A DNA stretch of 59,105 nucleotides from contig JBMFWH010000004.1 of the NCBI GenBank assembly GCA_049965455.1, forward strand, positions 1-59,105, in the 5' to 3' direction. The notes beneath the pieces are model-generated. The model searched no databases and had not been told where the DNA came from. It was given only the letters and a program-made list of their open reading frames with translations. Position 1 is the first letter of the stretch. Each line of letters begins with the position of its first letter. Below are positions 1 to 52,276 of the stretch, piece after piece. The translations under genes and the position numbers were made by a program. The stretch is from Thermoplasmata archaeon (GTDB lineage Archaea; Thermoplasmatota; Thermoplasmata; Thermoplasmatales; ARK-15).

Positions 1-8
1 TGTTCAAA

Positions 9-785
9 ATGATAACTTTAGATAATGTATCCATTAGCTATGGAAAGAGTATTGTAATAAAAAATCTTAATGCAAAAATTGAGGACGGTTCTAAATGGTT
101 CATTATAGGGCCAAATGGGTCTGGTAAGTCCACATTCCTAAAATCATTGATAGGACTAGTGAATTATAAGGGTACTATAAAAATAAACGGTAGTGATTTA
201 AGATCAGTTAAGAAGATTAATACCAGTACTAATGTAAAAGAGGCGGTGAATATTTCAAGTTATCTGACAGTTTCTGAGTTTATTAAGTTCCATACTGAAA
301 TTAGGGGGTATGAGTATTCTAAAGCTATAAATATGTTAGAGGAACTAAAAATGTCGGAAATTCTGCATTTTAAAATTGGCAAGTTATCCACAGGGCAAGA
401 AAAAATGGCATATAATATAGCAGCAATTGCTACAAACTCAGATCTTGTAATTCTGGATGAACCTTTTGAAACTGTTGATCCTTGGAGAGTAGAGATACTT
501 TCTAATATTATTAAAGAGAACGTAAAATCATATATTATAGTAAGTCATATAATTGACAATTTATCTATATCAAAAATTTTTAATGATACTCTTTTGTTAA
601 TATTTTTTAGAGGTAATATATTTGGTCCAATCGGGAAAATTGAGGATTCAATAAACCTCTATGTAAAAATCGGATCTAGCAATAATAGTATTTTAAATTA
701 TGAGACCGATATGGGGGAAATATCAATTTTAAGAGATAAAGAAGAAGGTAGTGTCCCATTATATAAGATGGGTGATATATTATGA
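9..785 (+). CDS. ABC transporter ATP-binding protein of the RiPP cluster
   Basis: Walker A GPNGSGKS, signature LSTGQ, Walker B LVILDEP, H-loop VSH; overlaps the next gene (ATGA). Confidence 0.9.
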   Translation: MITLDNVSISYGKSIVIKNLNAKIEDGSKWFIIGPNGSGKSTFLKSLIGLVNYKGTIKINGSDLRSVKKINTSTNVKEAVNISSYLTVSEFIKFHTEIRGYEYSKAINMLEELKMSEILHFKIGKLSTGQEKMAYNIAAIATNSDLVILDEPFETVDPWRVEILSNIIKENVKSYIIVSHIIDNLSISKIFNDTLLLIFFRGNIFGPIGKIEDSINLYVKIGSSNNSILNYETDMGEISILRDKEEGSVPLYKMGDIL

Positions 786-1597
786 AAAGCATAGTCAGTC
801 AACTAACGAAACTTGAGTTCAAATCGATTTTTCGTAATAAACACAATATAATGTGGGGAATTGGGTACATTGTAATCTGGATTTTTATTTATAATTTTGC
901 ATTTCCTGCCCCTCCTCAGGGATATAAGGTAGAATATCTTGCTTCTTATGTTTCCTTTGTAGTATTGCTAGCTGGGAGTATAGCAGTAACCACTACTGCA
1001 TATAGGGTTGCAAATGATGCATTGCCACATATTTATTTATATAGAAGCACAAATGCTAGTTTATATGTCCTTATAATATCGATTCTAGTTCCGGTGTTTA
1101 TATTCGGGGTTATGATCTCTACCCTATCCTTCATTGTTGGATATTTAGTATTTGGATATTCATATGGCATATTTCCAGCTGTGAATATAACAATTCTTTT
1201 AATAGCCTTGATTGAAGTGACTTTTTTTTACATTTCTTTTGGTAGTTTTATCAGTTACATATTATTAAATTTAAAAAGTATAAAACTTATCAGATATATC
1301 ACAATGATTCCCCTGATTTTAGTTTTGGGCCTAATCCTAGGGTTACAGGTTACGAGATCACCTACTCTCGAACTATTATATATCTCTCCTTTTAACGCAA
1401 TATATTCTGCATTTGAATTATCGATAACTGGTTCTTCCAGTAAACTGTTTAATAACCTTGCAATCAAAAATTTTTACCTCTTACTATCTCCAATTTTGTG
1501 GGCAGTCATACTGCTAATATTATCCATTGTTTTTTACGGTATATATTACCTATCCTCTGCTAAAAATGAATTTAAGCTTGAAGATCTCTACGGGTAG
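782..1597 (+). CDS. ABC-2 type permease (putative RiPP exporter)
   Basis: About 6 hydrophobic segments; translationally coupled to the ATPase. Confidence 0.8.
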   Translation: MKSIVSQLTKLEFKSIFRNKHNIMWGIGYIVIWIFIYNFAFPAPPQGYKVEYLASYVSFVVLLAGSIAVTTTAYRVANDALPHIYLYRSTNASLYVLIISILVPVFIFGVMISTLSFIVGYLVFGYSYGIFPAVNITILLIALIEVTFFYISFGSFISYILLNLKSIKLIRYITMIPLILVLGLILGLQVTRSPTLELLYISPFNAIYSAFELSITGSSSKLFNNLAIKNFYLLLSPILWAVILLILSIVFYGIYYLSSAKNEFKLEDLYG

Positions 1598-1612
1598 AAG
1601 GGGTGTAAAAAT

Positions 1613-2530
1613 ATGTTAATAACAAAAAAACAACAGATCTCTCTTTTAAATTTTAATGATTTAAATCCCATATCTTTAGATCGTGACACAAGAATAAATG
1701 AAGGATTATTGCCAATAAACATTAATGAATATCATAATAGATTTTTCAATAAATATGACATTGCGGAACTCTATCACGAAAACAGTAAATTATATCGGAG
1801 TACAGATAGTAATATTGCCTTATCTATTGCACAACTAAAGACTGACCCTGCTTTACTGAGCCAATATTTAATAACCCCAACATATGATACAATATATTCG
1901 ATTGACACCCATGGAATAGTACTAGATGGTAAGGATAAAAGCTTGCGAGATTGCATATTTGGCCGTAAATCAATAAGAAATTATACAGCCAAAGAAATAG
2001 AGGATAAAATATTATTTTCAATACTTAATCTATCTGCCGGGAAAACACGCGAAGAAAGTATTAAGTTTCATGATCAAATACAAAAAATCAGATTCAGGGC
2101 AATACCATCAGGTGGGGCACTATATCCCGTAGATATTTTTATACTATTAAAAAATGTTAGAAACATTGAAAATGGGATATACTGGTATAATCCAAACAAC
2201 TATATTTTGAATCTCCTAACCAAGGATCAAGATAGGATGGATATGCTGGATAAAGCCATGATTGATCAGAATATCTCAAGAGATTATTTTGCACTTTTTG
2301 TCCTTGTTGGAAACTTTTGGAGATCTAGAGTAAAATATGGCCCAAGAGCATATAGATTTGTTTTATTAGAGGCTGGTCATTTGGCTCAGAATATACTTTT
2401 ATCACATGTTTATTATGATCTTGGATCAGTGCCTTTGCAGGCATTTATCGATGATGAAGTTAGTAGAGCCTTATTGATAGATGGGGTGGATATTGCGCCC
2501 TTATATGTCATTGCAGGAGGTACCTATTAA
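1613..2530 (+). CDS. SagB/ThcOx-type FMN-dependent azoline dehydrogenase
   Basis: RKSIR, PSGGALYP, RSRVKYGPRAYR (Lys-Tyr motif), LEAGHLAQN; adjacent to YcaO. Confidence 0.9.
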   Translation: MLITKKQQISLLNFNDLNPISLDRDTRINEGLLPININEYHNRFFNKYDIAELYHENSKLYRSTDSNIALSIAQLKTDPALLSQYLITPTYDTIYSIDTHGIVLDGKDKSLRDCIFGRKSIRNYTAKEIEDKILFSILNLSAGKTREESIKFHDQIQKIRFRAIPSGGALYPVDIFILLKNVRNIENGIYWYNPNNYILNLLTKDQDRMDMLDKAMIDQNISRDYFALFVLVGNFWRSRVKYGPRAYRFVLLEAGHLAQNILLSHVYYDLGSVPLQAFIDDEVSRALLIDGVDIAPLYVIAGGTY

Positions 2531-3616
2531 ATGAAGTATGATAGCAAAAGCTTTTACGACAAGTATACCTTGAATGATAGTTTTTCGATCTTTTATATTT
2601 CAGATAATATTGTTGAGTTTAGATACGGTTTTTTGTCATATTATTCTATTACCTTGCAGGATCCATTGAATAGAGGGAGACTAAAGACTTTAATAGATAC
2701 GATCAAGAATAAATTGGCAATTGAGGAGATTTCGTCTAAATTTGAAGAAGATGAGTTCTTGGACTTGATAAATAAACTAGAATCTGCAAATATATTACTC
2801 ATAAATAGCAATACATCCACAATATTTGATAAGGTTTCAAGGTACATTCAACTGATCTCTGGAAAAACTTATTCGCCGCAAGAACTAAAAAATGCACTCA
2901 GTAAGAATATATATATATTAAACAATGGTGGATCGGGAGAGATCCTTAAAGAATTACTATTGCAACTAGGCTTTAATAATGTTTACCAATTTATGATAAC
3001 CCATAATAAAAATATGGATTCAAGCATAAACCTTACAACTATGAAAGAGAAACTTAAAGATGCTGATATTTTATTATGCATTCTTGATTATTTTGATCCT
3101 ATTCTCCCAAGGATAATAAATGAGTTTGCAATAGAAGAAAACAAGAAATGGGTTTTATCAGCTATTGATGGGATTAATATATTTATTGGCCCTACGTTCA
3201 TACCAAAAGAGACTGCTTGCTATGAATGCATGCAAAATAGGCTTATAGCAAATCAATCGGATTCAGAAATATTTAGTAGGGTATTACCAAATATTATGAA
3301 TGGAAACTGGATCTCTGGTAAAAATTTAATGCCGGTCACATATTCTTATTTAATGGCCTCTATAGCCGCTCAAGAAGCAATGAACTTATTGATTTTAAAT
3401 CAACCAATGCTGATTAACAGATTGCTAATTGTAAATACACAAAATTTTTCATTTTCTATTCAAAAAATACTAAAACTTCCGCGATGTAATGTTTGTGGAG
3501 CGAGAGTTTCTCCAAAACCAATATATCTCTCTATGAGTGAAATCCTTTCGCTCAATGAAAATACGGAATCTGCTTCTGAGCCCTTATTTTTAAAAATAAA
3601 TAAGAATGTGGAATAG
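2531..3616 (+). CDS. SagC-like E1/ThiF-type leader-peptide-binding cyclodehydratase partner
   Basis: GPTFIPKETACYEC and LKLPRCNVCG Zn motifs; N-terminal region compatible with an RRE. Confidence 0.85.
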   Translation: MKYDSKSFYDKYTLNDSFSIFYISDNIVEFRYGFLSYYSITLQDPLNRGRLKTLIDTIKNKLAIEEISSKFEEDEFLDLINKLESANILLINSNTSTIFDKVSRYIQLISGKTYSPQELKNALSKNIYILNNGGSGEILKELLLQLGFNNVYQFMITHNKNMDSSINLTTMKEKLKDADILLCILDYFDPILPRIINEFAIEENKKWVLSAIDGINIFIGPTFIPKETACYECMQNRLIANQSDSEIFSRVLPNIMNGNWISGKNLMPVTYSYLMASIAAQEAMNLLILNQPMLINRLLIVNTQNFSFSIQKILKLPRCNVCGARVSPKPIYLSMSEILSLNENTESASEPLFLKINKNVE

Positions 3617-3629
3617 TGATTGAAGTAAT

Positions 3630-4919
3630 ATGATTGGGTATAGAGTTTTTAAAAGCCCACTTACGGATCAAATACTTAGTCTTTATGGCAACTATACTGG
3701 TATAGCTAAAAGTTTAGGAGCAAACAGTAATGAACTGCCATCATGTACCTATTCTGATATATCTATTGAAGAATGCAATCTTAATGCAATAATGCATACA
3801 AAACATAAAATAAACTTACGCCCCGCATCACTGGACAAAACTATCGAAAAAGCAATACTAAAAGGATTCTCTGAACTTGCGGAAAGGTACTGCCTATTTA
3901 TGTACCCATTTGCATACCCAGATATTCTAACAAAAGGTACATATAAGGGTATCGCACAAAATGGGATTCCACTATCCTTATCCTATGTTAATTTATGGGA
4001 TAACTCTAATAATAAATTTAAGAATTACTGGGCAGAAGGGGTAATATCAAGTTTAAAGTCAGATGATGAGATTATGTGGATTGAGGGGGAGTCAATTACT
4101 AAAAATATAAAAGTATACATCCCGGCACAAATCATTTTTTTAAGTACGAGCTCTTTATTCAATGAAAAATTGTACTGGCTTGGAACCAGCTCTGGAACTG
4201 CATCACACACAAATAGGAATGAGGCAATAATCTCTTCTGTCCTAGAACTTGTTGAGCGGGATAGTATAATGAAATATTTCTACACTAATATCACACCAAT
4301 AGAAGTATCTCCTTTTGGTGAGTCAAAAAAATTATTAAATGAAATTGGTGAAAGTAGATTGTTCAGGTTTTATTTTTTACCAAACGAATTCAAAATACCT
4401 GTCTTTGTTACAGTTTCGCTATCAAGAGATAAAAAGAAGCCTTATGCGGTATTTGGTTCAGGGTCAGGATTAAATCCAGATAGTGCGTTGAAAAAGTCAT
4501 TAATGGAGTCTTTACAAGGCATATCACTTGTAACATATTATACAATAGTAAATGATATCAAGAATAACAAAAAATTTCTGGATCTGGATTCTGGGCCAGT
4601 TTTATATGGAGACCCTAAAAACTCAGATTTTTTAGAGCAATATTTAACATCAACTTCACTTGATTTCGAAAGTGTGTTTGAGTACAATGAATATTCATTG
4701 TATGGTTTGGAAAACATCCTTGAAAGAGTTAAAAAAAATGATTATGATCTTTTTCTTTTTGATATAACCACGGAAGATATTAAAGAGGTGGGGTTAACTG
4801 TCATCAGAGCATATATTCCTCAATTGATCCCATTTTCTGTACCGGCATTGCCGCCAGTTTCACATCCTAAATTTGATGATGTGAAAAATATTACCCCCTT
4901 TGTCCATCCATTTCCATAA
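3630..4919 (+). CDS. YcaO (SagD-like) cyclodehydratase
   Basis: SELAERY, TSSGTASH, ELVERD, ALKKSLME and Pro-rich C-terminus PFVHPFP typical of azoline-forming YcaO. Confidence 0.92.
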   Translation: MIGYRVFKSPLTDQILSLYGNYTGIAKSLGANSNELPSCTYSDISIEECNLNAIMHTKHKINLRPASLDKTIEKAILKGFSELAERYCLFMYPFAYPDILTKGTYKGIAQNGIPLSLSYVNLWDNSNNKFKNYWAEGVISSLKSDDEIMWIEGESITKNIKVYIPAQIIFLSTSSLFNEKLYWLGTSSGTASHTNRNEAIISSVLELVERDSIMKYFYTNITPIEVSPFGESKKLLNEIGESRLFRFYFLPNEFKIPVFVTVSLSRDKKKPYAVFGSGSGLNPDSALKKSLMESLQGISLVTYYTIVNDIKNNKKFLDLDSGPVLYGDPKNSDFLEQYLTSTSLDFESVFEYNEYSLYGLENILERVKKNDYDLFLFDITTEDIKEVGLTVIRAYIPQLIPFSVPALPPVSHPKFDDVKNITPFVHPFP

Positions 4920-5029
4920 GACTTAGGTAAAAAAGGTATACTATTGTATATTATCCCATATATTTCAGCTTTTATCTTAAACTCAGGAGCTTATTTAGGA
5001 ATAAATTGAAATATTTTGGTGAATTCAAC

Positions 5030-5183
5030 GAGGTTGTCAATTCTCCGTTGAAAATATTAAAAAGAGTATCAATTATCATACCACGCATATTTCAAAAACT
5101 ATTCAAATTAAAAGATCCAGATAAAACCTATATTTTCGGCAAAATAAAATAATATTCACATATCAAGGATAGTTGACATGTCA
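5030..5183 (-). mobile_element. MITE family A, copy 1
   Basis: Reverse complement aligns with 48423-48577 and 44464-44563; imperfect TIR around TGTCAA..TTGACA; no ORF. Confidence 0.75.
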
Positions 5184-5237: not shown

Positions 5238-5711
5238 ATGGAAAGTATACAAGAGCTATTAGAAATGGCTATAAGGGCAGAGATAGATTCTGAGAAGATA
5301 TATTCAGATCTCTCAAAAATGGTTAAGAATTATCTATTAAAAGAGAAACTGGAATTTTTGGCGAAAGAGGAAAATGGGCATAAAAAGATGTTAGAGCACA
5401 TATTTAGTATCAAGTATCCTAACAAGGCGCCGGAGATACCGGAGAGCACGAAAGTACCACTGCCACATATCGTGATAAGAGAAAAAGAGCCCCTTTCAGA
5501 TATATTTAGTCAGGCAATGGACGCAGAAGAGAAAACATCCAGGTTTTATACGGATCTCTCAAAGAGACTGAAAGGAGAAGAATCCAATATCCTAAGCTAT
5601 ATGAGCAATGTAGAAATGTCACATTATTATCTATTAAAAAGTGAACGAGAACTATTATTAAATTTCGAAAACTATGATCAATATTCTGAAATGATGCATA
5701 TAGGGCCATAA
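5238..5711 (+). CDS. Ferritin-like/rubrerythrin-family protein, paralog 1
   Basis: Two E...ExxH half-sites (AIRAE/EENGH, AMDAE/VEMSH); no rubredoxin domain. Confidence 0.85.
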   Translation: MESIQELLEMAIRAEIDSEKIYSDLSKMVKNYLLKEKLEFLAKEENGHKKMLEHIFSIKYPNKAPEIPESTKVPLPHIVIREKEPLSDIFSQAMDAEEKTSRFYTDLSKRLKGEESNILSYMSNVEMSHYYLLKSERELLLNFENYDQYSEMMHIGP

Positions 5712-5791: not shown

Positions 5792-6268
5792 ATGACTGAG
5801 ATTGAAGAGATGTTAGAAATGGCTATAAGGGCAGAGATAGATTCTGAGAAAATATATCTGCAGTTATCACAGATGGCTAAAAATAAATTATTGAAAGAGA
5901 AACTGGAATTTTTGGCAAAAGAGGAAAGCAAGCATAAGGAACTCTTAGAGAACATATTTTCCATAAAGTTTCAGGATAGAGAGCTGGAGATCCCACCTAG
6001 CACGAAAGTACCATTACCCCAGATAGAGATACACAAAAATGAGCCATTATATGATATATTAACGCAGGCTATGGATGCAGAAGAAAAAACTGCAATATTC
6101 TACCAGGATCTGTCTAAAAAACTAAAAGATGGCGAAGCTGCAAGCTTGATGCAATATTTAAGCTCGGTTGAAAGGTCACATTATTATCTGTTAGAAAGCG
6201 AGAAAGAGCTATTGATGCAGATGGAAAAATACAGTGGCAATTACAAATATTATAGCCTTAACCCTTAA
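5792..6268 (+). CDS. Ferritin-like/rubrerythrin-family protein, paralog 2
   Basis: AIRAE/EESKH and AMDAE/VERSH; near-identical 5' DNA to paralog 1. Confidence 0.85.
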   Translation: MTEIEEMLEMAIRAEIDSEKIYLQLSQMAKNKLLKEKLEFLAKEESKHKELLENIFSIKFQDRELEIPPSTKVPLPQIEIHKNEPLYDILTQAMDAEEKTAIFYQDLSKKLKDGEAASLMQYLSSVERSHYYLLESEKELLMQMEKYSGNYKYYSLNP

Positions 6269-46011: not shown

Positions 46012-46149
46012 TCCTGTTATTCATGCTCTTAAATATCTTTTTAATTGTTTTGTTTGTTAATATCAAATTGATCTTATAAAAATACGCATTTTACATAAAA
46101 AACATCATTTATCCCGCTTAATATTGCTTCCATACAGGACATGGTAACT

Positions 46150-46327
46150 GATCACGATTATGAAGTGGCGATATAACACAAATTACCTTTAATACAATAT
46201 ATTTTTAATTTATTATTACAAAATAAAATATATTCTCTATCTTTTAAATACAGTGAAAATTACGCATAATACTAGCTTTATGAGAACTTAACTTCAGAAT
46301 CGTGACCTATTACACATTATACGACTA
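46150..46327 (+). mobile_element. MITE family B, copy 2 (TIRs 46150-46307 plus 20-bp tail)
   Basis: GATCACGATTATGAAGT...ACTTCAGAATCGTGACC followed by TATTACACATTATACGACTA. Confidence 0.8.
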
Positions 46328-51300: not shown

Positions 51301-52276
51301 TTATATGATCTTTCTCTTGCGTAATGGTGAAAATAGGAACCTTATAACTATTCTCCTATATGTTAGCCATGAAATTCTCTTGTTATTTTTCTTGTTTGCA
51401 AGAATCCTCGGCACGAAAAAGCGGGATACGGTCTCTGGTTTATCTCCTAAAATGTTGAATATCTTTACGAATCTGGATCTTTCAATGAATGTGCAGCACC
51501 TCCCTCCGTGCGCTTTAATACAAAGTCCGTCGCCATCATGCTCGGCCATAATCTGCCCGCCTGCACTTTGGATCCTGCAAGCTCTTTAGCCAGCCATTTT
51601 GTGAAATATGTGAGTGCATGTTTTGAGGTACCGTACAAAATAATCTTTGTGGCAATCATGTTATTTGAGCCGTACCCATCCATGTTCCATATTTGCCCGT
51701 GCCCTTGCTTCAGCATGTTCTTTACCGCAACCTGTGACCCGAAGATCATGCCTTTGATGTTTGTATCTATGAGATCGTCCACGTAATTGAAGGGGGTTTC
51801 ATATATAAATTCAGTAGGGCTTATAATGCCAGCATTGTTGATCCATATATCAACACTTCCCCACTGTTTATAGGATCTGGGCCATAGGTTCTCAACCTCT
51901 TTTTCTGACCTGACATCACAGACTACAAACATTATAGTCGTATAATGTGTAATAGGTCACGATTCTGAAGTTAAGTTTTCATAAAAGCGAGTATTATGCG
52001 TAATTTTTATGGTATCTAAAGGATAGATAATATATTTTATTTTGTAATAATAATAATAATAAATTTAGAATATATTGTATTAAAGGCACTTTCTGTTATA
52101 TCTACACTTCATAATCGTGACCTTCTGTTTCCATACTTTTCTTACAAATACCCTAATTTTTCAAAAGATGATTCACTGTGCCCCGACATCGTGACGTTGC
52201 AACCAGCCTTCAAAAAATCTATTGCCATGCAAAATCCCAAACCTCTGGTACTTCCCGTAATAACCACGTTTGCCAT
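51301..52276 (-). pseudogene. Short-chain dehydrogenase/reductase interrupted by a MITE, a stop codon and frameshifts
   Basis: TGSTRGLG at the 5' end, in-frame TAA, then NNAG and YGTSK after the MITE; C-terminus in another frame. Confidence 0.85.
51935..52122 (-). mobile_element. MITE family B, copy 3 (TIRs 51955-52122 plus 20-bp tail), inserted in the SDR gene
   Basis: 17-bp TIR with one mismatch; removal rejoins the SDR frame as GNR-IMFVVCDVR. Confidence 0.85.

What the first reader, a model, noticed from the sequence alone, without database searches (positions are those of the whole stretch)
9..4919. Azol(in)e-RiPP (LAP/TOMM) maturation and export cluster in a Thermoplasmata-like archaeon
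Seen: five tightly packed co-directional genes (ABC ATPase, permease, Lys-Tyr dehydrogenase, E1-like protein with Zn motifs, YcaO ending PFVHPFP). The block is visibly more AT-rich than the rpo operon and is bounded by a MITE at 5030. Known: the SagB/C/D triad makes thiazole/oxazole peptides, and similar clusters are described in Sulfolobales and Pyrococcus. Inference: a laterally acquired cluster making an uncharacterised archaeal azole peptide whose precursor lies left of the window.
Basis: partly seen in the sequence, partly recalled or inferred. Interest (0 to 1): 0.75.

Follow-up and report, generated by a model that had tools for sequence, protein, structure and literature searches.

The report
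Archaeal polythiazole peptide gene cluster
An uncultured Thermoplasmata archaeon carries, on a mobile-element-flanked island that its close relatives lack, a complete six-gene set for turning a nine-cysteine peptide into a thiazole-rich product and exporting it; such systems are well known in bacteria, but no archaeal one has been studied.

Summary
Window 9-4919 encodes five tightly packed co-directional genes: ABC ATPase, ABC-2 permease, SagB-type dehydrogenase, E1-like SagC-type partner and YcaO.

The predicted precursor exists. The window starts at a contig end, and contig C121 overlaps it by a unique 77-mer. C121 carries, 34 nt upstream of the ATPase gene, a 48-aa ORF, MIELSSQYGGDIPIGLKVADETEKIKALGIYCCCCCDFCCCCSAASGI. 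It is the most Cys-dense of 31,087 open frames in the genome.

The YcaO is of the azoline-forming type:
- its best HMM is SagD;
- its best fold matches are LynD and MusD;
- it is separated from the TfuA/Mcr-linked YcaOs with 100 % SH-aLRT support;
- the genome has no TfuA.

The block is an island:
- its GC lies in the lowest 1 % of 5-kb windows;
- it was not found in 39 relatives;
- the same-genus genome G002 has an uninterrupted locus;
- it has an IS on the left and a MITE on the right.

Its enzymes have no relative above about 31 % identity. The core resembles the uncharacterised "gallolytisin" precursors of Cox et al. 2015, most of all that of Acidithiobacillus ferrooxidans (GIYCCCCADCCCCG).

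Verdict: a genuine, complete member of a known kind (a linear azole peptide, LAP/TOMM, cluster) that is rare in this lineage. Product and function are inferred.

The parts
1..8 (+). Last 8 nt of the 34-nt T-rich spacer between the precursor gene and the ABC ATPase gene. The precursor gene itself lies outside the window, on G000:C121:304-450 (176 to 30 nt left of window base 1). It encodes 48 aa: a 29-aa leader-like part plus the core IYCCCCCDFCCCCSAASGI.
   Evidence: C121's last 77 nt equal window 1-77, and this 77-mer occurs nowhere else in the assembly. ORF listed. The 48-aa protein P0160 is on record on a 59,723-base contig, the same longest-contig length as for the YcaO. It has 9 Cys in 12 residues; the next best of 31,087 open frames has 6.
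9..785 (+). ABC transporter ATP-binding subunit, 258 aa. Walker A GPNGSGKST, signature LSTGQ, Walker B LVILDEP.
   Evidence: PF00005 78.5 bits. Weak likeness to lantibiotic-protection ABC ATPases: TIGR03740 79.5 bits, below its cut-off. Motifs read.
782..1597 (+). ABC-2 type permease, 271 aa and polytopic; its start overlaps the ATPase stop by 4 nt.
   Evidence: PF01061 23 bits, below its 26.9 cut-off, aligned over 7-211 of the protein and 5-206 of 211 profile positions. Hydrophobic sequence.
1613..2530 (+). SagB-type FMN-dependent azoline dehydrogenase ('B' protein), 305 aa, with the Lys-Tyr motif (VKYGPRAYRF).
   Evidence: TIGR03605 110.1 bits, above its 78.4 cut-off. PDB relatives are azoline oxidases: 3eo7, BmdC, McbC (40.8 bits) and CyaGox.
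2531..3616 (+). E1-like (ThiF/MccB-like) partner of the cyclodehydratase ('C' protein), 361 aa, with two CxxC pairs. The N-terminal ~110 aa are the presumed leader-binding domain.
   Evidence: TIGR03882 54.4 bits, above its 36.9 cut-off; TIGR03603 (SagC) 81.2 bits, below its 187.65 cut-off. MccB 32.8 bits with both CxxC pairs aligned, and the N-domains of LynD, MusD and TruD. Atlas look-alikes are 'TOMM leader peptide-binding protein' clusters, score 0.95. For the N-terminal 110 aa there is only a sub-threshold winged-helix hit, E 0.022.
3630..4919 (+). YcaO cyclodehydratase ('D' protein), 429 aa, ending ...PFVHPFP.
   Evidence: PF02624 137 bits. TIGR03604 (SagD) 198.4 bits, below its 219.25 cut-off. 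In the alignment with 30 relatives, E82, E85, R86, E206 and P429 are invariant. AF2 model with pLDDT 88.2. Best folds are LynD (E 3.2e-21, TMq 0.71) and MusD.
5027..5178 (.). MITE copy that marks the right edge of the island.
   Evidence: 39 other copies in the genome at 78-91 % identity. Homology to the same-genus genomes resumes at window 5178 (G002) and 5185 (G001).

Best explanation
This is a complete, discrete-enzyme LAP/TOMM gene cluster of six genes, carried on a strain-specific, IS/MITE-bounded island in a Thermoplasmata archaeon. The order is precursor, ABC ATPase, ABC-2 permease, B, C, D.

Proposed mechanism. Step 1 is shown. Steps 2 and 3 are inferred from family membership and established TOMM biochemistry. 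Steps 4 and 5 are inference only.
1. A 48-aa precursor is made. It has a leader, MIELSSQYGGDIPIGLKVADETEKIKALG, and a core, IY-CCCCC-DF-CCCC-SAASGI.
2. The E1-like C protein binds the leader and presents the core to the YcaO. The YcaO uses ATP to cyclodehydrate the nine Cys, and perhaps the following Ser, to thiazolines (or an oxazoline).
3. The SagB-type flavoprotein oxidises these to thiazoles. The result is two contiguous penta-azole blocks separated by Asp-Phe, with a mass change of about -20 Da per ring.
4. The leader is removed by a protease that is not encoded in the cluster. The host has a TldD/PmbA pair and one CaaX-type protease elsewhere.
5. The two-component ABC transporter exports the product and/or protects the producer. 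By analogy with bacterial LAPs, the product most likely acts on competing cells as an antimicrobial or membrane-active 'archaeocin'.
For: Gene content and order.

Precursor:
- It sits 34 nt upstream of the ATPase gene, across a unique 77-nt contig overlap.
- Both the precursor and the YcaO are on record with a longest contig of 59,723 bases.
- A GGAGGT lies 7 nt before the ATG (sequence).
- It is the most Cys-dense of 31,087 frames.

YcaO:
- The SagD model scores 198 bits against 66 for the thioamidation model.
- All 31 sequences of the alignment (the query and its 30 nearest relatives) match TIGR03604.
- Acidic and Arg residues are invariant.
- The best fold matches are the azoline-forming heterocyclases LynD and MusD, TMq 0.71, against 0.58-0.60 for the methanogen YcaOs and 0.64 for McbD.
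- It is separated from 10 Mcr/TfuA-linked YcaOs of the same class by a branch with 100 % SH-aLRT (neighbour genes confirmed in 4 of 4 scanned).
- The genome has no TfuA and only one YcaO (completeness 94.7 %).

B protein: above the SagB cut-off, and its PDB relatives are all azoline oxidases.

C protein: above the TIGR03882 cut-off, with the CxxC pairs aligned to MccB.

C protein with precursor, co-folding: weak support only.
- Score 0.35; best of 3 controls 0.01.
- The mark was reached by 51 of 78 solved complexes and 2 of 108 mismatched pairs.
- At 0.60 or under it was reached by only 5 of those 78, and by all 4 mismatches that passed (of 180).
- The runs agree in at least 66 % of contacts; the partner's pLDDT is at least 39.

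Island.

Precedent for the core: Cox et al. 2015 describe PZN cores as 5 heterocyclizable residues, 2 nonpolar, then 5-6 heterocyclizable residues, and gallolytisin cores as Cys4-Xaa-Cys4 (passages; Table S2 rows).
Against: No chemistry, RNA or protein evidence exists, and no RNA run is listed as holding the stretch.

The YcaO and the C protein fall below the curated cut-offs of the SagD (198.4 < 219.25) and SagC (81.2 < 187.65) subfamily models.

The first Pro of the C-terminal PxPxP motif is Val.

A leader-binding RRE fold in the C protein was not demonstrated.

The cluster has no protease, regulator or dedicated immunity gene.

An IS ends about 15-20 nt before the precursor start codon, so the native promoter may have been displaced.

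The precursor has no detectable relative among 5.8 billion clustered proteins, so it cannot be shown to be conserved.

By plain sequence search, the best PDB hit of the YcaO is the thioamide-forming MJ1094 (48 bits).
Confidence: 0.8

Rival explanations
1. Same biosynthesis but a different role. The exported thiazol(in)e-rich peptide would be a metal-binding or metal-detoxifying molecule (a metallophore) rather than a weapon, selected in acidic, metal-rich habitats.
For: The closest core in print belongs to the iron- and sulfur-oxidising acidophile Acidithiobacillus ferrooxidans: GGIYCCCCADCCCCG against GIYCCCCCDFCCCCS here, with unrelated leaders. That points to selection on the core itself. 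The cluster has no separate immunity gene. From recall: thiazoline-containing natural products such as yersiniabactin and pyochelin, and some cyanobactins, bind metals.
Against: A dedicated SagB dehydrogenase predicts fully oxidised thiazoles, which are weak ligands. Every LAP named in the passages of Cox et al. 2015 that I read is antibacterial or cytolytic (microcin B17, streptolysin S, plantazolicin). No metal-responsive regulator or uptake gene lies in the cluster.
Confidence: 0.12
2. The island is a recently landed cassette that is transcriptionally silent or decaying, and no product is made in this host.
For: An IS terminus lies about 15-20 nt upstream of the precursor ATG, and that IS's own transposase gene is split by a second IS. 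There is no protease or regulator. The cluster was not found in any of 39 relatives. In one metagenome run, a contig about 88 % alike skips the 93 nt that hold the core.
Against: All six reading frames are intact, with conserved catalytic residues, tight or overlapping junctions and a Shine-Dalgarno-like GGAGGT before the precursor. The IS end carries a TATA-like TTTTTAAATATT about 40 nt before the ATG, which could drive the operon.
Confidence: 0.1
3. The YcaO performs other YcaO chemistry (backbone thioamidation, amidine formation or peptidase activity, as in MusD) rather than azoline formation.
For: By sequence, the best PDB match is the thioamide-forming MJ1094 (48 bits). MusD, a YcaO with ATP-dependent peptidase activity according to its PDB title, is the second-best fold match. 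The PxPxP motif is imperfect.
Against: There is no TfuA in the genome. The E1-like partner and the azoline dehydrogenase are adjacent. The substrate is poly-Cys. The SagD model scores three times the thioamidation model. In the tree the protein is separated from the TfuA/Mcr YcaOs.
Confidence: 0.04
4. The Cys-rich ORF is not the substrate. The C121-C4 join would be an assembly artefact, or the ORF a chance frame, with the true precursor elsewhere.
For: The join rests on a 77-nt k-mer overlap in a repeat-rich MAG of 128 contigs. The ORF has no homologue.
Against: The 77-mer is unique to the two contig ends. The peptide and the YcaO share a longest-contig length of 59,723 bases on record. The joint and depth tables indicate that a metagenome contig (X1 record 6) runs from the ORF's 5' part into the ATPase start, but only its 256-354 piece is listed. 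Nine Cys in 12 residues is unmatched by any of 31,087 frames. The core matches published LAP core patterns.
Confidence: 0.04

Closest known systems
'Gallolytisin' group of predicted TOMMs (Cox, Doroghazi & Mitchell 2015, PMC4603692); uncharacterised. It includes Streptococcus gallolyticus and Acidithiobacillus ferrooxidans.
   Same: Both have a discrete C and D cyclodehydratase, a B protein, ABC transporters and a short precursor (37-46 aa there, 48 aa here). The cores are two Cys runs split by one or two residues. The A. ferrooxidans core ...GGIYCCCCADCCCCG shares G-I-Y-CCCC...D...CCCC with ...LGIYCCCCCDFCCCCS here.
   Different: The core here is Cys5-Asp-Phe-Cys4 plus a SAASGI tail, not Cys4-Xaa-Cys4. 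The leaders are unrelated by eye. There is no regulator gene. The host is an archaeon. The D protein cannot belong to any published isofunctional group, because the paper's edge threshold is BLAST E < 1e-54 and the best relative anywhere scores E 1.6e-35 at 28 % identity. A direct comparison with the A. ferrooxidans enzymes could not be made.
Plantazolicin (PZN) of Bacillus velezensis/amyloliquefaciens
   Same: The core layout is the same: 5 heterocyclizable residues, 2 intervening residues, then 5 heterocyclizable residues (PZN as described in Cox 2015). The precursor is short (about 45 aa) and the cluster has discrete B, C and D plus ABC transporters.
   Different: There is no N-terminal Arg and no PZN methyltransferase or protease gene. 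The core is all Cys rather than a Cys/Thr/Ser mix. The intervening pair is Asp-Phe, not two nonpolar residues.
Streptolysin S-like cytolysins (sagA-I)
   Same: SagB, SagC and SagD homologues, an ABC exporter, and a precursor with a run of five Cys following a Gly-containing junction.
   Different: Cox 2015 defines cytolysin cores as a Gly followed by 10 or more contiguous heterocyclizable residues, and the clusters as containing a CaaX-like protease. Here the longest run is 5 and the cluster has no CaaX gene; the one in the genome lies on another contig. The precursor matches no NCBIfam family.
Microcin B17 synthetase McbBCD with McbEF export
   Same: The division of labour is the same: an E1-like Zn protein, a YcaO, an FMN dehydrogenase and a two-component ABC exporter/immunity pump. 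McbC (40.8 bits) and McbD (fold TMq 0.64) are detectable relatives. As for MccB17 (recalled: TldD/E remove its leader), no leader protease is encoded in the cluster, and the host has a TldD/PmbA pair.
   Different: The MccB17 core is Gly-rich with isolated and 4,2-fused azoles, not two penta-Cys blocks. Sequence identity is very low.
Thermoacidophisin (Sulfolobus) and haloazolisin (Halobacteria), the archaeal TOMM families of Cox 2015
   Same: The hosts are archaea. Thermoacidophisin also has discrete C and D, a B protein and ABC transporters, and shows cross-domain spread.
   Different: Thermoacidophisin precursors are rich in Tyr and Gly. Haloazolisins have fused, highly divergent cyclodehydratases and Ser-rich cores. 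Neither has a poly-Cys core.

Membership tests
TOMM / linear azol(in)e-containing peptide (LAP) cluster | YcaO-domain cyclodehydratase (D protein) with conserved ATP/Mg-binding residues | tested here: met
   PF02624 137 bits against a cut-off of 25.7. E82, E85, R86 and E206 are invariant among the query and 30 relatives. The assignment of these residues to the ATP site is recalled, not tested. The fold matches LynD, MusD and McbD. The SagD subfamily model scores 198.4 bits, below its 219.25 cut-off.
TOMM / linear azol(in)e-containing peptide (LAP) cluster | C-terminal PxPxP motif of azoline-forming YcaOs (the motif's role is recalled from the literature) | tested here: inconclusive
   The protein ends V-H-P-F-P, so the last two Pro and the His are kept and the first Pro is Val. 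41 of 49 nearest relatives end P-x-P-x-P, and 8 of 49 also deviate.
TOMM / linear azol(in)e-containing peptide (LAP) cluster | E1-like partner ('C' protein) adjacent to the YcaO | tested here: met
   TIGR03882 54.4 bits (cut-off 36.9) and PF00899 34.7 bits (cut-off 28.1). It aligns to MccB and to the N-domains of LynD, MusD and TruD. The gene ends 13 nt before the YcaO gene.
TOMM / linear azol(in)e-containing peptide (LAP) cluster | Leader-peptide recognition element (winged-helix RRE) in the C protein | tested here: inconclusive
   There was no PqqD/RRE hit. Only WH_MCM3_C at E 0.022 and 15.4 bits, below its cut-off of 27. The single-sequence AF2 model is unusable, pLDDT 34. Co-folding with the precursor gave weak support: 0.35 against a best control of 0.01.
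TOMM / linear azol(in)e-containing peptide (LAP) cluster | SagB-type FMN dehydrogenase with the Lys-Tyr motif (needed for azoles as opposed to azolines) | tested here: met
   TIGR03605 110.1 bits (cut-off 78.4). K-Y is present in VKYGPRAYRF and aligns to the KYG of BmdC.
TOMM / linear azol(in)e-containing peptide (LAP) cluster | Short precursor with a Cys/Ser/Thr-rich core encoded nearby | tested here: met
   A 48-aa ORF lies 34 nt upstream of the ATPase gene. 11 of its last 17 residues are Cys or Ser.
TOMM / linear azol(in)e-containing peptide (LAP) cluster | Azol(in)e rings in the mature product | not testable with these tools
   This needs mass spectrometry of the modified peptide.
Streptolysin S-like cytolysin family | Core with a Gly followed by 10 or more contiguous heterocyclizable residues, and a CaaX-like protease in the cluster (definition from Cox 2015) | tested here: not met
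   The longest contiguous run is 5 (CCCCC, then DF, then CCCCS). The cluster has no CaaX gene; the only Rce1-like gene is on contig C9.
Gallolytisin group (Cox 2015) | Cys4-Xaa-Cys4 core motif | tested here: inconclusive
   The core here is Cys5-Asp-Phe-Cys4, with two residues between the runs. The motif G-I-Y-CCCC is shared with the A. ferrooxidans member.
Gallolytisin group (Cox 2015) | D protein within the isofunctional group (network edges at BLAST E < 1e-54) | tested here: not met
   No protein among 1.84 billion representatives scores better than E 1.6e-35 at 28 % identity, apart from an identical 80-aa fragment. The E-value scales differ, so this is an approximate test. The named members could not be fetched.
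Plantazolicin class | Core starting with Arg, plus the PZN-specific N-methyltransferase (Cox 2015) | tested here: not met
   The residues before the first Cys are Ile-Tyr. There is no methyltransferase among the six genes.
TfuA-associated thioamide-forming YcaO | TfuA partner and grouping with McrA-type YcaOs | tested here: not met
   PF07812 gave 0 hits in the genome, while the control rang in M. acetivorans. A branch with 100 % SH-aLRT separates the protein from 10 class YcaOs, whose neighbours are TfuA (2 of 2 scanned) and McrB (2 of 2 scanned).

The most novel reading that the evidence does not exclude
A 'GIY-Cys4/5-x-Asp-x-Cys4' bis-polythiazole peptide would be a habitat-linked molecule shared across domains. 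On this reading the same core is made by an acidophilic bacterium (Acidithiobacillus ferrooxidans) and by this Thermoplasmata archaeon, through enzymes that have diverged beyond 70 %, and the cassette moves on IS/MITE-bounded islands. In the archaeon the operon would be driven by a promoter inside the terminus of the upstream IS. If it is expressed, it would be the first archaeal azole RiPP with an identifiable precursor. Its role could be interference competition or metal handling in such communities.
Probability: 0.25. Interest if true: 0.7.

Novelty: new member of a known kind. Interest (0 to 1): 0.5.

Why it matters
Archaeal RiPP chemistry is almost unexplored. The 2025 genome-mining paper whose passages I read (PMC12144867) lists YcaO-related RiPPs among the abundant predicted archaeal classes, and stresses how few archaeal RiPP products have been identified.

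Most archaeal 'YcaO clusters' are either McrA-thioamidation enzymes or lack a recognisable precursor. This one is a small, complete and unambiguous test case: a precursor, B, C and D, and an exporter in about 5.4 kb. It could be synthesised and reconstituted directly.

It also documents rare, IS/MITE-mediated acquisition of a LAP cassette by a Thermoplasmata lineage. A TOMM-type YcaO was found in 0 of 39 relatives and in only 1 of 399 other genomes of the class, and that one has a different architecture.

Finally, it links to an uncharacterised bacterial poly-Cys LAP group, gallolytisin.

Tried and rejected
- The search for related loci with the YcaO found no relatives in genome contigs or metagenome contigs. 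The same search with the best hit P0011 in genome contigs also found none. With alignment A2 the tool found no conserved stretch to search with.
- A metagenome scan with a degenerate back-translation of GIYCCCC-x-D returned 16 loci. None has B, C or D homologues by tblastn at E <= 1e-3. The frames are short or out of context, and L047 is the antisense of a poly-Gln gene. I treat them as chance matches.
- The word-based search found no homologue of the C protein (1 hit, itself, among 3,088 candidates) and none of the precursor.
- The single-sequence AF2 model of the C protein had pLDDT 34.2 and is unusable.
- Plasmid collection: 62 records hold YcaOs, all bacterial or haloarchaeal and all below 60 % identity; the listed ones are 23-27 % identical. 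None is a close relative.
- Sequencing runs: no RNA holder is listed, and all holders have small shares of 0.16 or less. The laid contigs mostly cover the IS terminus, so there is no evidence on expression.
- A class-wide search with TIGR03882 was noisy. 159 of 400 genomes had weak partial hits to E1-like enzymes, and 5 of 400 were over the cut-off. G000's 56.5 bits is the only strong hit. The tallies include two unpublished genomes, G327 and G239, which had sub-cut-off hits only.
- Walking the assembly graph further left failed. The tail of rc(C48) equals the tail of C63, and the head of rc(C108) lies inside C26. The left edge of the island is therefore undefined.
- Earlier scan notes held no look-alike of this YcaO.

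Full report
OBSERVATION

The ORF listing shows five co-directional ORFs at exactly the reported places:
- 9-785, 258 aa.
- 782-1597, 271 aa, overlapping the previous gene by 4 nt.
- 1613-2530, 305 aa.
- 2531-3616, 361 aa, starting on the base after the previous stop.
- 3630-4919, 429 aa.

Pfam and NCBIfam assign them as follows:
- An ABC ATPase (PF00005, 78.5 bits).
- An ABC-2 type permease (PF01061, 23 bits, below its 26.9 cut-off but aligned end to end).
- A SagB-type dehydrogenase (TIGR03605, 110.1 bits, cut-off 78.4).
- An E1-like TOMM cyclodehydratase partner (TIGR03882, 54.4 bits, cut-off 36.9; PF00899, 34.7 bits).
- A YcaO (PF02624, 137 bits).

The subfamily models SagC (81.2 < 187.65) and SagD (198.4 < 219.25) are the best hits but are not reached, so these are divergent members.

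The Lys-Tyr motif, the two CxxC pairs and the C-terminus PFVHPFP are all present. Both CxxC pairs align to those of MccB.

The block is AT-rich. Its GC is 0.3175 against a genome mean of 0.3737, and only 0.99 % of 1,107 5-kb windows are as low. GC3 of the five genes is 0.24-0.29, in the lowest 1-7 % of 760 ORFs of 250 aa or more.

The repeat at about 5027-5178 matches 39 other places in the genome at 78-91 % identity. It is a MITE, as earlier notes on this genome also concluded for repeats of this size.

THE PRECURSOR

The window is G000:C4:1-59105, so it begins at a contig end. The 557-nt contig C121 ends with the same 77 bases as window 1-77, and this 77-mer occurs nowhere else in the 128 contigs.

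C121 carries an ORF at 289-450 (53 aa). Its second ATG, at 304, is preceded by GGAGGT. From that ATG it encodes MIELSSQYGGDIPIGLKVADETEKIKALGIYCCCCCDFCCCCSAASGI, 48 aa. The stop lies 34 nt before the ATPase ATG, across a T-rich spacer.

Exactly this 48-aa protein is already on record (P0160). Its longest contig is 59,723 bases, the same figure as for the YcaO P0001. That supports the join independently of this assembly.

Among 31,087 stop-to-stop frames of 25 aa or more in the genome, this one has 9 Cys in a 12-residue window. The next best have 6, in 4 frames.

It has no sequence relative in the word-based search of 5.8 billion clusters and matches no Pfam or NCBIfam family at E <= 10, apart from one meaningless hit.

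WHICH KIND OF YcaO

The exhaustive HMMER search of 1.84 billion representatives gave 3,452 hits at E <= 1e-3 but only 8 at E <= 1e-30. The best full-length relative is 28 % identical (E 1.6e-35). The protein is therefore an outlier in sequence.

The query and its 30 best relatives (alignment A2) all match TIGR03604. They share invariant E82, E85, R86, E206 and a C-terminal Pro.

41 of 49 relatives end P-x-P-x-P. The query ends V-H-P-F-P.

An AF2 model built on A2 is confident (pLDDT 88.2, pTM 0.91). Its best solved matches are:
- the azoline-forming heterocyclase LynD, E 3.2e-21, TMq 0.71;
- MusD, TMq 0.71;
- the methanogen thioamidation YcaOs, TMq 0.58-0.60;
- McbD, TMq 0.64.

The genome has one YcaO and no TfuA (completeness 94.7 %).

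In the same class, 60 of 399 other genomes have a YcaO at E <= 1e-10, but all except G041 align only to model positions of about 58-404. I inspected ten of them. They lie beside McrB genes (2 of 2 scanned) or TfuA genes (2 of 2 scanned).

In a maximum-likelihood tree of 61 rows, a branch with 100 % SH-aLRT separates those ten from the query and the PxPxP-type proteins. This was the quick IQ-TREE mode with LG+G4. The query sits on a long branch of 1.31 with no supported close sister.

THE PARTNER ENZYMES

The PDB relatives of the B protein are all azoline oxidases or SagB-like proteins: 3eo7, BmdC, McbC at 40.8 bits and CyaGox.

The C protein aligns to MccB and to the N-terminal E1-like domains of LynD, MusD and TruD. 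Atlas look-alikes are 'TOMM leader peptide-binding protein' clusters with a score of 0.95.

A leader-binding winged-helix domain in its first ~110 residues could not be shown. There is only a sub-threshold winged-helix hit (E 0.022), and the single-sequence AF2 model was unusable (pLDDT 34).

Co-folding of the C protein with the precursor gave weak support:
- Score 0.35; best of 3 controls 0.01.
- The mark was reached by 51 of 78 solved complexes and 2 of 108 mismatched pairs.
- At 0.60 or under it was reached by only 5 of those 78, and by all 4 mismatches that passed (of 180).
- The runs agree in at least 66 % of contacts, and the partner's pLDDT is at least 39.

AN ISLAND

With the YcaO protein as query, 0 of 39 relatives matched: same genus 0 of 2, same family 0 of 14 including the genus, same order 0 of 25. 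With the 4.9-kb DNA as query, 0 of 5 relatives matched. This means 'not found in those searched'; completeness of those genomes is 76-99 %.

The flank to the right is conserved at about 90 % identity in the same-genus genomes G001 and G002. It holds two rubrerythrin-like genes, a PHP phosphoesterase gene and the methionyl-tRNA synthetase gene.

In G002 this flank is preceded by a 432-nt spacer with a small ORF that I read by eye as SHOCT-like. Before that comes DNA which in G000 lies on another contig, C48. Homology to the window begins at 5178 in G002 and 5185 in G001, which is the right end of the MITE.

On the left:
- C121:1-148 is identical to the 3' end of a 284-aa ORF on C33 that I read by eye as an IS4-like DDE transposase.
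- That stretch interrupts a second transposase-like gene, which starts at C121:198 on the minus strand and continues on C108.
- Laying contigs of four public metagenome runs shows that C121:149 to about 285 is a high-copy element whose unmatched continuations begin at 275-294.
- An IS terminus therefore lies about 15-20 nt upstream of the precursor ATG.
- A TATA-like TTTTTAAATATT (C121:256-267) and a perfect 9+9 palindrome (227-246) lie inside that terminus.

The graph could not be walked further left, so the left extent of the island is unknown.

HOW IT MOST LIKELY WORKS

By established TOMM biochemistry, which is inferred here and not tested, the steps are:
- The C protein binds the leader.
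- The YcaO cyclodehydrates the Cys residues with ATP.
- The SagB flavoprotein oxidises the thiazolines to thiazoles.
- The ABC pair exports the product and/or protects the producer.

The core layout is five Cys, then Asp-Phe, then four Cys plus Ser. It predicts two contiguous penta-azole blocks.

No protease is encoded in the cluster. The host has a TldD/PmbA pair (C2) and one CaaX-type protease (C9). I recall, without checking here, that TldD/E remove the microcin B17 leader.

Function is inferred by analogy only. An antimicrobial or membrane-active role is the most likely. A role in metal binding is the main rival.

COMPARISON WITH WHAT IS KNOWN

From Cox, Doroghazi & Mitchell 2015 (PMC4603692) I saw passages, all of supplement 1 and searched rows of supplement 2. 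The paper describes:
- Plantazolicin cores as 5 heterocyclizable residues, 2 nonpolar residues, then 5-6 heterocyclizable residues.
- Cytolysin cores as a Gly followed by 10 or more contiguous heterocyclizable residues, with a CaaX protease in the cluster.
- An uncharacterised 'gallolytisin' group with discrete C and D, ABC transporters, a regulator and a Cys4-Xaa-Cys4 core.

Table S2 lists, under gallolytisin, the Acidithiobacillus ferrooxidans precursor ending GGIYCCCCADCCCCG. This shares G-I-Y-CCCC...D...CCCC with the peptide found here, while the leaders look unrelated.

The term 'gallolytisin' occurs in no other paper of the library. No paper holds all three of Acidithiobacillus, YcaO and thiazole.

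The archaeal TOMM families in that paper have different precursors: thermoacidophisin in Sulfolobus and haloazolisin in Halobacteria.

A 2025 archaeal RiPP mining paper (PMC12144867, passages) lists YcaO-related RiPPs among the abundant predicted archaeal classes and stresses how few archaeal RiPP products have been identified.

I could not fetch the A. ferrooxidans enzymes, so whether the shared core reflects transfer or convergence stays open.

VERDICT

The thing itself is a new, sequence-divergent member of a well-known kind of system. It is rare in its lineage and complete enough to be tested directly.

It is not categorically new, and product and function remain inferred. I score interest 0.5.

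Noticed in passing
G000:C121:149-290 (331 to 190 nt left of window base 1): An IS terminus ends about 15-20 nt before the precursor start codon. It holds a TATA-like TTTTTAAATATT and a perfect palindrome AATCTGACA-TT-TGTCAGATT. In four metagenome runs this stretch has very high depth, and the loose ends begin at 275-294. The IS end may supply an outward promoter for the RiPP operon. Alternatively, the AAAATATAA just after the IS end could drive a leaderless transcript that starts at the in-frame TTG (C121:313).
   Followed up: partly
G000:C121:1-148 / C33:11174-11321 / C108: These are nested insertions. A transposase-like gene starts at C121:198 on the minus strand and continues on C108. It is split at C121:148/149 by the end of a second element, whose 284-aa ORF on C33 I read by eye as an IS4-like DDE transposase. 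Neither ORF was scanned against Pfam.
   Followed up: partly
L009 (C121) 354-448, run X1: One 239-nt metagenome contig, about 88 % alike, covers C121:256-354. According to the joint table it resumes at 448, skipping or replacing the 93 nt that encode the end of the leader and the whole Cys core. Two other contigs cover 473-557 with 1-4 differences. This may be a related cluster with a different core, or an assembly effect of the low-complexity TGY run.
   Followed up: no
L025 = G041:C105:4219-7261: This is the only other TOMM-type YcaO found among 399 genomes of the class. The protein is 439 aa and ends IPHPFI. It is followed by a 220-aa nitroreductase (PF00881, 37.3 bits) and a 354-aa protein with no Pfam family but an SGGKDS motif, which looks PP-loop-like by eye. 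No E1-like partner is present.
   Followed up: partly
L034 (G002:C19), the 432 nt left of the point homologous to window 5178; G000:C2:119-535: At the site of the island, G002 has a small membrane-protein ORF with a SHOCT-like C-terminus (read by eye). G000 lacks it at this locus and has only a 67 % identical stretch (DNA level) on C2.
   Followed up: no
G000:C48:248-420 and window 46146-46316, 51946-52122: A second, different MITE family of about 172 nt has more than 55 matches in the genome. One copy lies at the other side of the assembly break, next to the C48 region that is syntenic with G002.
   Followed up: no
window 5238-5711 and 5792-6268: Two tandem paralogous rubrerythrin/ferritin-like genes of 157 and 158 aa (PF02915, 60 and 69.7 bits). 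They resemble the N-terminal domain of the iron exporter MbfA but lack its membrane part. They are native to the genus, being present in G001 and G002.
   Followed up: partly
   Followed up: no
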